Assembly (NCBI GenBank): GCA_046497275.1
Contig: JAWOFX010000094.1
Location: 1-9,339, forward strand
Reading direction: 5' to 3'
DNA length: 9,339 nucleotides
Source of the DNA: Promethearchaeia archaeon
GTDB taxonomy: Archaea; Asgardarchaeota; Lokiarchaeia; Sigyniarchaeales; SOKP01
Shown here piece after piece: positions 6,812-9,339 of the stretch; position 1 is the stretch's first letter, and each line of letters starts with the position of its first letter. The position numbers were made by a program, and so were the translations under genes. The notes beneath the pieces were generated by a model. The model saw nothing but the letters and a program-made list of their open reading frames with translations. It searched no databases and had not been told where the DNA came from.

Positions 6812-6842
6812 TTTAATCTACTCTTTTCATTCTTCTAATAAA

Positions 6843-6856
6843 TAAATAAAGTTTTT
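6843..6856 (-). promoter_or_regulatory. Candidate BRE/TATA promoter of the M42 gene
   Basis: Minus strand reads AAAAAC-TTTATTTA, ending 32 nt before the ATG at 6811. Confidence 0.45.
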
Positions 6857-6907
6857 GATTATAGTTAAATCATATTTTAAATAAATAAAATAAATTACGA
6901 GTAACTT

Positions 6908-6971
6908 AAAAAAAAATAAACGAAACTAAATAATAAGATTTAATTAAACATTTATAAAAAATTAAGAAAAA
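6908..6971 (-). terminator. T-tract terminator candidates after the HerA-like gene
   Basis: Minus-strand T5 (6967-6971), T6 (6956-6961) and T9 (6908-6916) following a pyrimidine-rich run after the stop codon. Confidence 0.4.
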
Positions 6972-7003
6972 GTAAGATAATATAGGAGATAATGGAAGGA
7001 TTT

Positions 7004-8713
7004 CTATTTAGACACCCTTTTTAATTCCTTGATAGATTTTTCGGCAAGGCGAATAGCATCATCATAATCTATTTTTAATTGATCCATTTCCATCTCTAAT
7101 TCTTTTGTATATTTTTCTAATTGTTCAAGTGTTTGGGCTGTTTTTTGATCCATATCCGAACCACCTTCTCCAGTTTCTACTCGCTCTTTCAATGAATTAT
7201 ATTTTTCTTCCCAAACTTTTACTTCAGTCTGCAATTCTTTCACTCTTTCATCAACAGGAACGCTACTTGGTGCCCCAGCTTTTTGTATCTCTAATTCTTC
7301 GTATCTCTCCTTCCATTTTGTAATGCCCTCTTCTAATTCTTTTATTTTCATCTTCATATCTGATATCATATCTAATAAATCATCCTTTGTCTTGTCACCT
7401 AATATCTCTTTGAACATCTCTTTCCCTGCTTCTATTTGTGACTCTGATTTATCTCCTAAAATGCGTTGCTTCCGTTTTTGTAAATCTTCTACTGTCTGTT
7501 CTGAGAGATAGTCTAACGCATTAAATCCAATACCACCATGTTGAGTTCTTCTTTTTCTCACTTTTATAAAAATAGGAACACCTCTCACAGCTTCTCCACT
7601 TATAATACCTTCTCCTCTATCTAATCCGCTAATATCATCTCTATTATCTCTACTAAGATCCTCAGCACTTGAAATAGTGATATTAATATCGTTTACATCT
7701 GAAAGGCTATGAACTACCCACGTTCCTGCTTGTGCTCGTATTGTTGTGTCTAAGAGTTGTGGCCTTTGGGTTCCAATTACTAAATTCGCTCCAAATTTAC
7801 GGCCTTCTTGAGAAAATAGTCTAACAGTGTCACTAGTTGCGCTTGATTTTTTTCCAGCGAAAAGATGTGCCTCATCTAAAAATAAATAAAATGGAGGAAT
7901 CTTTCTCGATGTACTCGCCTGATATAATTTTTTTAATAATCTTCCCGCAAGAGTTTCTTGTGCCTCAAGGGATATTCCTCTCATATTAATGATGCTACAG
8001 AGATTTGGTGCCACAATATCCTTCTCGTCTAAAGAAAAGAGGTATTCGATATCGATATCTGCTCCTTTATTAATACTCAAATCAGAAAATTCAATAATAT
8101 TATCAATAAACTCGCTTTCAGCACCACCTTCATCTTCACCAGCGATTTTTAAACTTCCATATTCTCCATGTCTGTCAAGAATTACCACTGGAATACCCTT
8201 TTCCATGAATTCCTCACATAATACACCCATTGTGTAAGATTTTCCACTTCCTGAACGCCCAGTAATAAATACACGACCAAAATCTTTTATTAACAAGTTT
8301 ACATCAAAATCATATCCAAGAAGTTTTCCAAGCGCAACTGATTTTTCAGGAGGATTATCTATTCCCAACAGTTTTCGGATTTGTTGTTCCTTTGCTAAAT
8401 ATACTTTAGACCCTACCTCAAATGGTCTTTTAGGTCTGTCCCCAACAACGGTTAGATCCGCTTTCATTCCATCCGAATCATTCCATATTTTTGAGATAGA
8501 AAGAATAAAATAGTCCGTATCTTCATTTTTTTTGGCTTTTTTATCATCCTTATAAATAGTAAGGTAACTTGTTCGTTCTACTTCTTTGCTTTCAATTAGA
8601 AGTGTAGCAGAACTTAACTCAGTTTTTCCAGTAAGTCTTCCAACGGGCTTTTCTTCAGTTCCTCCGATATCCTCATCCTTACTGGGTGAATCATTATCAT
8701 TATTATCTGACAT
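7004..8713 (-). CDS. HerA/FtsK-superfamily (DUF87) P-loop ATPase with HAS-barrel-like N-terminus and C-terminal coiled-coil repeats
   Basis: 569 aa. Walker A GRSGSGKS (152-159), DRHGEY (180-185), Walker B LFLDEAH (277-283), EGRKFG, TQRP (315-318), R..T.HGG (388-394). N-terminal beta-rich region with RPFEVGSKVYLA resembling the HAS barrel. Residues ~445-567 are heptad-rich and charged. Confidence 0.9.
   Translation of the reverse strand: MSDNNDNDSPSKDEDIGGTEEKPVGRLTGKTELSSATLLIESKEVERTSYLTIYKDDKKAKKNEDTDYFILSISKIWNDSDGMKADLTVVGDRPKRPFEVGSKVYLAKEQQIRKLLGIDNPPEKSVALGKLLGYDFDVNLLIKDFGRVFITGRSGSGKSYTMGVLCEEFMEKGIPVVILDRHGEYGSLKIAGEDEGGAESEFIDNIIEFSDLSINKGADIDIEYLFSLDEKDIVAPNLCSIINMRGISLEAQETLAGRLLKKLYQASTSRKIPPFYLFLDEAHLFAGKKSSATSDTVRLFSQEGRKFGANLVIGTQRPQLLDTTIRAQAGTWVVHSLSDVNDINITISSAEDLSRDNRDDISGLDRGEGIISGEAVRGVPIFIKVRKRRTQHGGIGFNALDYLSEQTVEDLQKRKQRILGDKSESQIEAGKEMFKEILGDKTKDDLLDMISDMKMKIKELEEGITKWKERYEELEIQKAGAPSSVPVDERVKELQTEVKVWEEKYNSLKERVETGEGGSDMDQKTAQTLEQLEKYTKELEMEMDQLKIDYDDAIRLAEKSIKELKRVSK
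7052..7345 (-). repeat. Three degenerate ~19-aa coiled-coil repeats in the ATPase tail
   Basis: aa 457-475 IKELEEGITKWKERYEELE (7345-7289), aa 491-509 VKELQTEVKVWEEKYNSLK (7243-7187), aa 536-554 TKELEMEMDQLKIDYDDAI (7108-7052). Confidence 0.7.
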
Positions 8714-8729
8714 AATTAATCACTTTAAG

Positions 8730-8745
8730 TTGTATATATATACAA
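8730..8745. promoter_or_regulatory. Perfect 16-bp palindrome (candidate operator) overlapping the probable TATA box of the HerA-like gene
   Basis: TTGTATATATATACAA is its own reverse complement and lies 17-32 nt upstream of the ATG at 8713. Confidence 0.55.
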
Positions 8746-8809
8746 TAGTTTGGATTAAAATTAATAATAACTATTATGAAGATAAAAGAAAATTAAGAAA
8801 TTTAAATCT

Positions 8810-8830
8810 ATAGAAAATAATGTTTTCTAT
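8810..8830 (-). terminator. AU-rich hairpin followed by T-rich tract after the DUF2156 gene
   Basis: ATAGAAAA-(5 nt)-TTTTCTAT 8-bp stem 6 nt past the stop codon, followed on minus by TTTCTTAATTTTCTTTT. Confidence 0.35.
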
Positions 8831-8835
8831 GTTCC

Positions 8836-9339
8836 TTAAGGCTCTTCTTTATATACAATATATTTCTTGACCATATGATCTGGATGGTATGATTGTTTAG
8901 CTCTTCTCAACCCTGGAATTCCTAAATCTTGTTCACGATTAACATATTCAGTACCTTCTTCGCAACAATTCTCCAGAAACATATGATTTATGGCTTGATA
9001 TGACCCATTATAATGTCTATGAGCTTTCTCAATATGGATAGCTGTTGTATTATCATTCAACATCTCGCCAAAAGTATAGGCAACGGGATCATCTTCTACC
9101 AGCAATACACCACCATTATAGCCTAATTCAGAATAATTATCAATTAACCTGTTGATTGCCTTTTGTTCTTGTGCCAAATCTTTATTACTCTGGCATTCAT
9201 TAATGATGCACCATTTATTTTGAAGTCTCCGACATGTCTCAATCCACTCTTCAGAAAGGAGATGAAATTCATAGTCATATTCCTCTAAGAAACTTTCCAA
9301 AAATCGACGCTTAGAACGATATTTATTCCCTGAAAGATC
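8836..9339 (-). CDS. DUF2156 (phosphatidylglycerol lysyltransferase C-terminal-like, aminoacyl-tRNA transferase fold) protein, 5'-truncated by the window edge
   Basis: Motifs IHIEKA, Y..IN..F and YVNREQDLG..GLR.AK.SY.P. The frame stays open upstream of the track's TTG at 9300 to the window edge (DLSGNKYRSKRRFLESF), which includes the family L.G.KY..KR motif, so the true start lies beyond 9339. Confidence 0.88.
   Translation of the reverse strand, partial: DLSGNKYRSKRRFLESFLEEYDYEFHLLSEEWIETCRRLQNKWCIINECQSNKDLAQEQKAINRLIDNYSELGYNGGVLLVEDDPVAYTFGEMLNDNTTAIHIEKAHRHYNGSYQAINHMFLENCCEEGTEYVNREQDLGIPGLRRAKQSYHPDHMVKKYIVYKEEP

What the first reader, a model, noticed from the sequence alone, without database searches (positions are those of the whole stretch)
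7004..8713. Stand-alone HerA-like ATPase with re-engineered architecture (no helical insert, long coiled-coil tail, no nurA)
Seen: HAS-barrel-like N-terminus and complete ATPase motifs, but only about 55 aa between DRHGEY and the strand preceding the Walker B helix. The conserved R..T.HGG end is followed by a ~175-aa extension, mostly coiled coil. There is no adjacent nurA, mre11/rad50, Sir2 or nuclease gene, and the gene has its own promoter and terminator candidates. Known: canonical archaeal HerA has a large helical insertion there and is encoded with NurA/Mre11/Rad50, and defence HerAs pair with Sir2/nuclease partners. Inference: a distinct, possibly undescribed FtsK/HerA subfamily in which a hexamer-bundled coiled-coil stalk replaces the DNA-gripping insert. 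It could tether to a partner, membrane or filament (segregation, DNA exchange or remodelling).
Basis: partly seen in the sequence, partly recalled or inferred. Interest (0 to 1): 0.72.

Follow-up and report, generated by a model that had tools for sequence, protein, structure and literature searches.

The report
Tethered HerA-like ring ATPase of Asgard archaea
This Lokiarchaeal gene encodes an uncharacterised branch of the HerA/FtsK ring-motor family that lacks HerA's helical insert and carries a conserved helical tail; it lies inside the ESCRT cell-division gene cluster in one sister lineage and has a distant haloarchaeal relative seen at mid-cell, so it is a candidate archaeal counterpart of the bacterial DNA pump FtsK.

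Summary
The ORF at 7004-8713 (-) encodes a 569-aa protein with three parts: a HAS-barrel-like N-terminus, a complete HerA/FtsK-type ATPase core about 79 aa shorter than Sulfolobus HerA between Walker A and B, and a 175-aa helical tail. No nuclease gene lies in the window; a NurA-HerA pair sits on another contig.

The protein is not nested in any characterised HerA clade. It belongs to a well-supported, vertically inherited "insert-less" clade found in Lokiarchaeia, Thor, Baldr and several TACK lineages. I did not find it in several other large Asgard families. The tail is always present but varies from 102 to 220 aa. Only its start and an invariant terminal helix with a basic tip are conserved, which suggests a flexible tether rather than a stalk replacing the insert.

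Two independent clues point to cell division:
- In five Helarchaeota-like loci (59-93% identical to each other) the orthologue is paired divergently with Snf7 inside the ESCRT-III/Vps4/ESCRT-II/ubiquitin cluster.
- Haloferax HVO_1301 is a distant insert-less homologue with a coiled coil. A 2026 preprint reports it at mid-cell as a CdpB1 interactor.

Function remains inferred, and a repair role is a live rival. Other windows of this scan had already flagged orthologues. Verdict: new variant of a known kind, interest 0.6.

The parts
7004..8713 (-). Whole ORF, 569 aa plus stop: the insert-less HerA-like ATPase (P0001).
8648..8713 (-). Residues 1-22: acidic, low-complexity N-terminus, poorly conserved, pLDDT below 50.
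8396..8647 (-). Residues 23-106: HAS-barrel-like beta domain.
   Evidence: AF2 strands between residues 25 and 106; Foldseek match to HerA 4d2i; the phmmer alignment to 4d2i begins at residue 104
7532..8341 (-). Residues 125-394: RecA-like HerA/FtsK ATPase core, ending in the conserved R.R.T.HGG motif.
8237..8260 (-). Walker A, GRSGSGKS (residues 152-159).
   Evidence: G152, G157, K158 and S159 are invariant in 41 sequences
8159..8176 (-). DRHGEY motif (residues 180-185).
8099..8146 (-). Residues 190-205: short acidic loop where canonical HerA carries its helical insert. Some Loki relatives have a zinc ribbon inserted here.
7865..7888 (-). Walker B, YLFLDEAH (residues 276-283).
7790..7807 (-). 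EGRKFG motif (residues 303-308); E303 to F307 are invariant.
7007..7531 (-). Residues 395-569: helical C-terminal tail. It comprises a conserved GFNxLD linker and first helix, a variable hinged middle, and a terminal helix.
7175..7387 (-). Helices 443-477 and 488-513: a duplicated KEL..W.E.Y helix unit specific to the long-tailed Loki family.
   Evidence: z = 5, 1 of 500 shuffles
7007..7063 (-). Residues 551-569, DDAIRLAEKSIKELKRVSK: terminal helix with basic tip. A, E and K are invariant across Asgard orthologues. Candidate docking motif.
8714..8835 (-). Upstream intergenic region with a TATA-like string 22-31 nt before the ATG. Candidate promoter, untested.
6812..7003 (-). Downstream intergenic region with T-runs. 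Candidate archaeal terminator, untested.

Best explanation
Shown. The gene encodes an intact member of a distinct, vertically inherited archaeal clade of HerA/FtsK-superfamily P-loop ATPases. Its parts are a HAS-type barrel, a RecA-like core without the HerA helical insert, and a helical C-terminal tail ending in an invariant helix with a basic tip.

Inferred by homology to solved HerA rings. It assembles into a hexameric ring and uses ATP to pump a polymer through its central channel, most likely double-stranded DNA.

Inferred from context and from one distant homologue. The flexible tail tethers the ring, through its terminal helix, to the cell-division apparatus. There it would clear or segregate chromosomal DNA during division, which is what FtsK does in bacteria. 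The apparatus would be ESCRT-III-based in Asgard archaea and FtsZ/CdpB-based in haloarchaea.

The confidence given is for the whole statement including the division-site role. The family and architecture part alone I hold at about 0.9.
For: Family and fold.
- DUF87 hit at E 2.9e-15.
- Best solved relatives by sequence and by fold are the HerA hexamers 4d2i and 9x1l.
- The core model has pLDDT above 90.
- Catalytic motifs are invariant in 41 sequences.

Distinct clade with vertical descent.
- The Asgard+TACK clade has 99% SH-aLRT support, and its internal order groups rows by lineage: G007, Baldr, Thor, Hel, Loki f2, Loki f1.
- Strong orthologues occur in most or all genomes of five families of the phylum sample: about 57 of 68 in f1 (62 of 68 match at E 1e-20), 5 of 7 in f2, 18 of 19 in f14, 4 of 4 in f17 and 1 of 1 in f11.
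- The neighbourhood is syntenic within the family, and conservation matches that of neighbouring housekeeping genes (61% against 48-72%).

Tether.
- The start and the end of the tail are conserved while the middle varies in length.
- The tail folded alone forms helices without a compact fold.

Division link 1.
- In five loci whose proteins are 59-93% identical to each other, the orthologue is paired divergently with Snf7 inside the cluster of Snf7 x2, Vps4, ESCRT-II, UEV/E2 and ubiquitin. The pair survives internal rearrangements of the cluster.
- A complete Loki genome keeps the MazG-Sec61beta-HerA-like part of that gene order.

Division link 2.
- HVO_1301 was identified here as the 588-aa ORF at about 1.186 Mb of a 2,847,757-bp replicon.
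- It has a contiguous insert-less core, 28% identical to residues 138-371, followed by a coiled coil and a C-terminal winged helix.
- It scores best against the HMM of the sister clade (146 bits), and its only hit in this genome is the window gene.
- The preprint 10.64898/2026.07.16.738847 reports it as a mid-cell-localised CdpB1 interactor.

Open niche. No FtsK_SpoIIIE gene was found in 300 of 301 Asgard genomes.

Weak hint of expression. Metatranscriptome contigs from two studies cover 7041-8668, and cover is near zero at 8737-9048.
Against: - No experiment exists on any member of the Asgard/TACK clade.
- ESCRT adjacency is confined to one lineage. It was absent in about 45 other Asgard loci, and ESCRT genes lie hundreds of kilobases away in two complete genomes.
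- Only 1 of 7 genomes in the order of the first ESCRT-linked locus carries the gene.
- HVO_1301 is very divergent (tree branch 3.9) and lacks the HAS barrel. Its deletion had only minor division effects.
- The family was not found in several large Asgard families that also divide and also lack FtsK, so it cannot be a universal solution.
- The substrate, DNA or protein, is untested.
- No conserved partner gene exists across lineages.
Confidence: 0.38

Rival explanations
1. It is a DNA-repair or recombination motor. The ring would translocate on DNA ends or branched DNA together with nucleases encoded elsewhere, as a paralogue of the HerA-NurA/Mre11-Rad50 system with its own tail-mediated recruitment.
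For: - The closest characterised relatives are repair HerAs.
- The genome has an orphan NurA on C121 with no adjacent HerA.
- In one genus of the neighbouring family f2, the orthologue lies convergent to a 556-aa calcineurin-like phosphoesterase. An earlier scan report read that module as a short-Mre11 module.
- The Hel loci also sit next to the PolD large subunit.
Against: - The orphan NurA is phylum-wide (260 of 301 genomes, including families that lack this ATPase), so it does not track the family.
- The phosphoesterase pairing is limited to one genus, and this genome has no homologue of it.
- No nuclease is a conserved neighbour in any other lineage.
- The genome already has a NurA gene beside a full-length HerA-type gene.
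Confidence: 0.22
2. It acts on protein or membrane rather than DNA. The ring would remodel or translocate a polypeptide, for example ESCRT-III polymers or another filament, or anchor a complex, with the tail as a substrate adaptor.
For: - The conserved divergent pairing with an ESCRT-III gene in the Hel-like clade would fit a direct protein partner equally well.
- Some FtsK-like ATPases move proteins (established knowledge: type VII secretion EssC).
- The helical insert of canonical HerA is missing here.
Against: - All solved HAS-barrel HerA relatives act on DNA (titles).
- Vps4 already fills the ESCRT-III remodelling role in these clusters.
- Basic residues are invariant around the core (R305, K306, R326, R386, R388), though that is not specific to DNA.
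Confidence: 0.15
3. It is a defence or mobile-element ATPase. It would be the motor of an anti-virus system, or of a DNA transfer or packaging machine, that happens to be fixed in these genomes.
For: - Partial PADLOC matches to defence HerA models, and a contiguous match to MADS mad8 (79 bits).
- A PHROG match to FtsK/HerA-type packaging ATPases.
- The haloarchaeal sister clade is mobile: 92% identity between genera, and an integrase and a PD-(D/E)xK gene nearby in Halorubrum.
- One orthologue was noted earlier beside vapBC.
Against: - It is a single-copy gene whose tree groups rows by lineage.
- Housekeeping synteny is stable across the family.
- No effector, methylase, integrase or capsid gene lies in the window or in other Asgard loci.
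- All defence-model scores are partial and low.
Confidence: 0.07

Closest known systems
Archaeal HerA DNA translocase of the HerA-NurA / Mre11-Rad50 end-resection system (Sulfolobus solfataricus 4D2I; Thermococcus kodakarensis HerA-NurA 9X1L)
   Same: HAS-type N-terminal barrel, a RecA-like core with the same motif set (GxxGSGKS, D.HGEY, DEAH, EGRKFG, TQRP), and the best sequence and fold matches. It probably shares the hexameric ring and ATP-driven threading mechanism.
   Different: - It lacks the helical insert of about 80 aa.
- It has a 175-aa helical tail instead of HerA's short C-terminal end.
- It has no NurA, Mre11 or Rad50 neighbour.
- It scores 102 bits against the 800-bit equivalog cut-off.
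- It is separated from this genome's NurA-adjacent HerA-type gene by a very long, fully supported branch.
Haloferax volcanii HVO_1301 (D4GXE5, 'DUF87 domain protein'), a mid-cell-localised CdpB1 interactor (bioRxiv 10.64898/2026.07.16.738847)
   Same: A contiguous insert-less ATPase core (28% identity over 244 columns) followed by a coiled coil and a long C-terminal extension. It is the closest relative with any experimental data, and the window gene is its only homologue in this genome.
   Different: - It has no HAS barrel.
[quoted passage not shown]
- It is very divergent (branch 3.9), so orthology is not established.
- Its host divides with FtsZ rather than ESCRT.
Bacterial FtsK/SpoIIIE DNA translocases
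   Same: Same superfamily. The proposed role is the same: a ring DNA pump tethered to the division machinery by a long linker.
   Different: - There is no Pfam FtsK_SpoIIIE match.
- It has no N-terminal membrane domain and no gamma (KOPS-reading) domain.
- The tether is C-terminal and helical.
- It has a HAS barrel.
- This is an analogy of function, not membership.
Defence HerA ATPases (Sir2-HerA, DUF4297-HerA) and MADS mad8
   Same: HerA-type core. mad8 is likewise insert-less and aligns contiguously.
   Different: There is no adjacent effector and no defence-island context. The matches are partial and low-scoring, and the gene is vertically inherited.

Membership tests
Canonical HerA (NurA-partnered repair helicase; NCBIfam NF040937 / NF040819) | N-terminal HAS barrel followed by a RecA-like ATPase with Walker A/B | tested here: met
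   AF2 model and Foldseek match to 4d2i; motifs located
Canonical HerA (NurA-partnered repair helicase; NCBIfam NF040937 / NF040819) | Helical-bundle insertion in the ATPase domain (second half of Pfam DUF87, positions about 99-219) | tested here: not met
   The DUF87 match covers only positions 3-98 of 220. The protein is 79 aa shorter than 4d2i between the aligned blocks.
Canonical HerA (NurA-partnered repair helicase; NCBIfam NF040937 / NF040819) | Score above the curated equivalog cut-off | tested here: not met
   102 bits against 800, and 91 bits against 970
Canonical HerA (NurA-partnered repair helicase; NCBIfam NF040937 / NF040819) | Encoded next to nurA (often with mre11 and rad50) | tested here: not met
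   Window neighbours are listed. NurA genes lie on C43 (beside another HerA-type gene) and on C121.
FtsK/SpoIIIE | Pfam FtsK_SpoIIIE ATPase domain, N-terminal membrane anchor, gamma domain | tested here: not met
   No PF01580 hit for the protein. The family was not found in this genome or in 300 of 301 Asgard genomes.
Defence HerA systems (Sir2-HerA, DUF4297-HerA, MADS) | Adjacent effector or partner gene and full-length match to a defence model | tested here: not met
   Only partial PADLOC matches; no effector in the window or in related loci
Insert-less archaeal HerA-like clade (Asgard + TACK; sisters: haloarchaeal WH_Halo clade and HVO_1301) - defined here, not a curated family | Contiguous core without the insert, the R.R.T.HG(G/A) end, and placement in the 99%-supported clade | tested here: met
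Insert-less archaeal HerA-like clade (Asgard + TACK; sisters: haloarchaeal WH_Halo clade and HVO_1301) - defined here, not a curated family | C-terminal helical tail ending in the ..A(I/V)xLAExAIxELKK motif with a basic tip (Asgard members) | tested here: met
   Alignment A4 of 21 tails from Loki f1, Loki f2, Hel, Thor, Baldr and G007
Insert-less archaeal HerA-like clade (Asgard + TACK; sisters: haloarchaeal WH_Halo clade and HVO_1301) - defined here, not a curated family | Hexameric ring and DNA translocation | not testable with these tools
   A hexamer exceeds the size limit of the complex predictor, and no biochemistry exists.

The most novel reading that the evidence does not exclude
Archaea that lack FtsK have their own division-coupled DNA pump. 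It would be an insert-less HerA-type ring held at the closing division site by a flexible helical tether, docking to ESCRT-III machinery in Asgard archaea and to the FtsZ/CdpB divisome in haloarchaea. This would be the first link between chromosome clearance and ESCRT-mediated scission in the closest prokaryotic relatives of eukaryotes.
Probability: 0.3. Interest if true: 0.85.

Novelty: new variant of a known kind. Interest (0 to 1): 0.6.

Why it matters
How archaea keep DNA out of the closing division plane is unknown, and this applies especially to the ESCRT-dividing relatives of eukaryotes. The idea that HerA-type pumps stand in for FtsK in archaea has been in the literature since about 2004 (my recollection; not checked here) and, as far as I know, has never been tied to a specific protein.

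This clade now has three things in its favour: a defined architecture, a conserved placement in the ESCRT cluster of one Asgard lineage, and a distant haloarchaeal homologue already seen at mid-cell. Together these give a concrete, testable candidate, and Haloferax offers a tractable entry point.

If the repair reading is right instead, this is a second, tail-recruited HerA system in Asgard and TACK archaea, which would be of more modest interest.

Tried and rejected
- **Tail and Vps4.** I ran a complex prediction of the tail's last 60 residues against the MIT domain of this genome's Vps4. It returned no verdict (score 0.00), which is evidence neither for nor against binding.
- **ESCRT genes near other orthologues.** Searches with Snf7, Vps4 and Vps25 HMMs or phmmer over about 95 loci found them only in the Hel-like loci. 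A Vps4-like hit near a Bathyarchaeia orthologue has no MIT or Vps4_C domain, and another hit is the proteasome ATPase PAN.
- **Conserved-neighbour clustering.** Across 35 loci of 10 lineages, no partner is shared between lineages.
- **PRC-barrel (CdpB-like) neighbour.** It occurs in only two related TACK loci. No PRC-barrel gene was found in this genome or in two complete Loki genomes. My iterated PRC HMM drifted through the zinc ribbon and I discarded it.
- **Orphan NurA as a partner in trans.** Its phyletic profile does not track the family.
- **Phosphoesterase neighbour in family f2.** It is limited to one genus, and this genome has no homologue.
- **Complementary distribution with FtsK.** There is none; FtsK is missing throughout the phylum sample.
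- **Haloarchaeal WH_Halo clade as a chromosomal orthologue.** Rejected. It is mobile-element-borne, and Haloferax volcanii did not appear among the hits listed.
- **Halorubrum 555-aa DUF87 protein as the HVO_1301 orthologue.** Rejected. It carries the full insert and falls outside the insert-less clade.
- **RNA evidence.** The RNA-library contigs cannot prove transcription or give a transcript start. The shared contig ends at about 8668 carry adapter sequence.
- **Literature.** Searches found no paper on this clade.
- **ESM Atlas look-up.** It added nothing.
Full report
**Observation**

The window is a 9.3-kb contig (C70) of a 3.85-Mb Asgard genome with about 30% GC. Its closest protein relatives are labelled Promethearchaeota or Lokiarchaeota.

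The ORF at 7004-8713 on the minus strand encodes 569 aa. Pfam finds DUF87 ('Helicase HerA, central domain') at E 2.9e-15, but only over profile positions 3-98 of 220. Every NCBIfam HerA equivalog is hit far below its cut-off, for example 102 bits against 800.

Against solved structures the best sequence match is Sulfolobus HerA 4d2i (E 6.6e-22). It aligns in two blocks, query 104-187 to target 103-183 and query 268-385 to target 343-460. That places a deficit of about 79 residues exactly where HerA carries its helical insertion.

An AlphaFold2 model built on 41 sequences has pLDDT above 90 throughout residues 20-390. It shows:
- an N-terminal beta-barrel;
- a RecA-like core with only short elements between DRHGEY (180-185) and the Walker B strand (275-280);
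- five tail helices separated by Gly/Pro hinges.

Foldseek ranks HerA hexamer structures first (4d2i, E 7e-27). All catalytic motifs are present and invariant across 41 family members.

The window holds no nuclease, Sir2, Mre11 or Rad50 gene. The genome has a NurA gene beside a full-length HerA-type gene on contig C43, a further full-DUF87 paralogue on C156, and an orphan NurA on C121.

**What family it is**

A word-indexed search found more than 400 close homologues. All are from Asgard metagenomes, are 552-615 aa long and at least 53% identical (mostly at least 59%), and all carry the tail. Two of them have a zinc ribbon inserted into the acidic loop that marks the missing insert.

An exhaustive HMMER search of 1.8 billion cluster representatives gave 121 hits below E 1e-30. 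They fall into two tiers:
- about 15 representatives (E below 1e-76) that align contiguously;
- many (E 1e-50 to 1e-28) that align in two pieces and carry the full DUF87 domain.

Maximum-likelihood trees show four groups:
- A 99%-supported clade joining the Asgard proteins with roughly 1000-aa TACK proteins. The Asgard members are two Loki families, Helarchaeota, Thor, Baldr and one further family. The TACK members come from Bathyarchaeia, Nezhaarchaeales, Culexarchaeia and Methanomethylicia, and their C-termini are coiled coil plus many zinc ribbons.
- A haloarchaeal sister clade with a WH_Halo domain.
- The insert-bearing clade of DPANN, Thermoplasmata and Methanosarcinales, which includes this genome's C156 paralogue.
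- The NurA-adjacent HerA-type gene of this genome, on a very long, fully supported branch.

Inside the Asgard clade the rows group by lineage, which suggests vertical descent.

In a sample of 301 Asgard genomes, orthologues with E below 1e-98 occur in most or all genomes of five families: about 57 of 68 in f1 (62 of 68 match at E 1e-20), 5 of 7 in f2, 18 of 19 in f14, 4 of 4 in f17 and 1 of 1 in f11. Four other large families, with 77, 31, 22 and 10 genomes, show nothing stronger than about E 1e-21, or nothing at all. Some NCBI records label close orthologues as Heimdall- or Hodarchaeota. These nest within the Loki family in the tree and share its synteny, so I treat the labels with caution.

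The protein is thus not a member of any characterised HerA clade. It belongs to an uncharacterised insert-less clade.

**The tail**

Tails were cut after the R.R.T.HG(G/A) motif. Their length is 173-185 aa in the window's family, 102 aa in one of its genera, 105-122 aa in Hel, Thor, Baldr and G007, and 123-220 aa in the second Loki family.

Aligned, three regions stand out:
- The first 25 residues or so (GFNPLDF..E.L.KR..RL) are conserved.
- The last 25 residues or so are conserved, with invariant Ala-Glu and Lys in ..A(I/V)xLAExAIxELKK followed by basic residues.
- The middle is variable.

In this protein two middle helices are significantly similar to each other (z = 5, 1 of 500 shuffles). 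The third is not. The long Loki tail therefore arose partly by helix duplication.

Folded alone, the tail gives confident helices but pTM 0.28, meaning no compact fold.

I read this as a flexible helical tether, possibly a coiled coil in the oligomer, that presents a conserved terminal docking helix. I do not read it as a stalk that substitutes for the insert. Insert-less cores are also normal elsewhere in the superfamily: there is a contiguous match to MADS mad8 and to viral packaging ATPases.

**Context**

Within the window's family the neighbourhood is syntenic: LPG_synthase_C, this gene, M42 peptidase, MFS transporter, alpha/beta hydrolase, a small ORF and URO-D. The ATPase is about as conserved as its neighbours. 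No neighbour is shared across lineages.

One lineage is different. There the 491-aa orthologue, 48% identical, lies divergent to a Snf7 gene. It is followed by Snf7, Snf7, Vps4, ESCRT-II and a UEV/E2 gene.

Four further loci show the same pairing. Their proteins are 80, 80, 60 and 59% identical to the L045 protein. All keep the divergent Snf7 / HerA-like pair inside the ESCRT-ubiquitin cluster, even though the rest of the cluster is inverted or interrupted in some of them. All are preceded by PolD-DP2, a CBS protein, MazG and Sec61beta. A complete Loki genome keeps the order MazG, Sec61beta, HerA-like, but its ESCRT genes lie elsewhere.

Limits of this clue:
- ESCRT genes are not near the gene in about 45 other Asgard loci.
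- In this genome the ESCRT genes are on contigs C39 and C41.
- Only 1 of 7 genomes in the order of the first ESCRT-linked locus carries the gene.

**The only experimental lead**

A 2026 preprint (10.64898/2026.07.16.738847) lists HVO_1301, a 588-aa 'DUF87 domain protein', among CdpB1 crosslinking partners that localise to mid-cell in Haloferax volcanii. Its deletion had only minor effects.

I located the gene as the 588-aa ORF at about 1.186 Mb of a 2,847,757-bp replicon. Calling this replicon the H. volcanii DS2 chromosome rests on my recollection of its length, on the expected position of locus tag 1301, and on the exact ORF length.

Its features:
- It has no HAS barrel.
- Its ATPase core aligns contiguously with residues 138-371 of the window protein (28% identity, E 1e-15).
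- The core is followed by a coiled coil, an acidic linker and a winged helix.
- It scores best against the HMM of the haloarchaeal sister clade (146 bits, including the C-terminal domain). Against the insert-bearing clade the match splits in two.
- Its only tblastn hit in this genome is the window gene.
- In the tree it falls inside the insert-less clade, but on a branch of 3.9 substitutions per site, so orthology is not established.

**Mechanism**

Shown: the fold, the intact catalytic motifs, clade membership, the tail anatomy and the context.

Inferred from homology: a hexameric ring that threads a polymer, most likely dsDNA.

Inferred from two independent, indirect clues (ESCRT-cluster placement and HVO_1301 at mid-cell): the ring is tethered at the division site and acts like FtsK. 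FtsK itself was not found in 300 of 301 Asgard genomes. I put this reading at about 0.35-0.4.

Rivals:
- A repair motor with nucleases encoded in trans. The orphan NurA does not track the family, and the phosphoesterase neighbour is limited to one genus.
- A protein- or ESCRT-remodelling motor.
- A defence or mobile-element ATPase, which the vertical inheritance and housekeeping synteny argue against.

Metatranscriptome contigs from two studies cover most of the ORF and little of the upstream region. This is a weak hint that the gene is expressed.

**Verdict**

This is a real and well-conserved gene, and a new variant of a known kind of motor. The 'stalk replaces insert' idea does not. The most interesting reading, an archaeal division-coupled DNA pump, is open and testable.

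Orthologues in other genomes had already been flagged by first-stage readers of this scan. One neighbouring-family module had a follow-up report.

Noticed in passing
window 7175-7387 (-): Two tail helices (residues 443-477 and 488-513) share a KEL..W.E.Y unit significantly (z = 5, 1 of 500 shuffles). The third helix does not, so this is a duplication rather than the triplication noted by a first-stage reader.
   Followed up: partly
L018:5552-5986 (-) and L051:8110-8511 (-): In two related TACK loci a small PRC-barrel plus zinc-ribbon protein is encoded divergently upstream of the 800-1000-aa orthologue. PRC-barrel proteins (CdpB) are haloarchaeal division factors, and HVO_1301 was pulled down with CdpB1. 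I found this in no other locus, and no PRC-barrel gene was found in the Loki genomes searched.
   Followed up: partly
P0125, P0135; L050-L055: TACK orthologues (812-1013 aa) carry a long extra C-terminal region with coiled coil and a dense array of CxxC zinc ribbons. Some Loki orthologues (P0044, P0111, and genera g4 and g6-g9) instead have a zinc ribbon inserted in the loop after DRHGEYGSLK.
   Followed up: no
L123 (Halorubrum aethiopicum) and P0286-P0307: The haloarchaeal WH_Halo sister clade is 87-92% identical between different genera. In Halorubrum it lies near a tyrosine integrase and a PD-(D/E)xK gene, so it looks mobile-element-borne.
   Followed up: partly
L105:11518-13188 (-), L104:6055-7677 (+): In one genus of the neighbouring Loki family, which includes a single-contig 4.36-Mb genome, the orthologue is followed by a 122-aa ORFan and a convergent 556-aa calcineurin-like phosphoesterase. 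This genome has no homologue of the phosphoesterase.
   Followed up: partly
L046:6730-7389 (+) and the syntenic Thor loci: About 2.6 kb downstream of the Thor orthologue lies a 219-aa protein with a sub-threshold EAP30/Vps36 (ESCRT-II-like) match (22 bits against a cut-off of 26.8). Winged-helix families compete for the same region.
   Followed up: no
G000 contig C121:13293-14567 (-): This genome's best NurA gene is an orphan with no HerA gene beside it. A weaker NurA-like ORF precedes the full-length HerA-type gene on C43. The orphan NurA family occurs in 260 of 301 Asgard genomes.
   Followed up: partly
window 8836-9339 (-): The upstream gene, truncated by the contig end, encodes an LPG_synthase_C (DUF2156-type) protein. 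This gene is conserved next to the ATPase across the family, and there is no sign of a functional link.
   Followed up: no
P0209, P0220 and other representatives of 1058-1339 aa: At least two members of the insert-bearing neighbour clade, P0209 and P0220, carry inteins inside the ATPase domain. Other long representatives may too. Inteins usually lie in important replication or repair genes.
   Followed up: no
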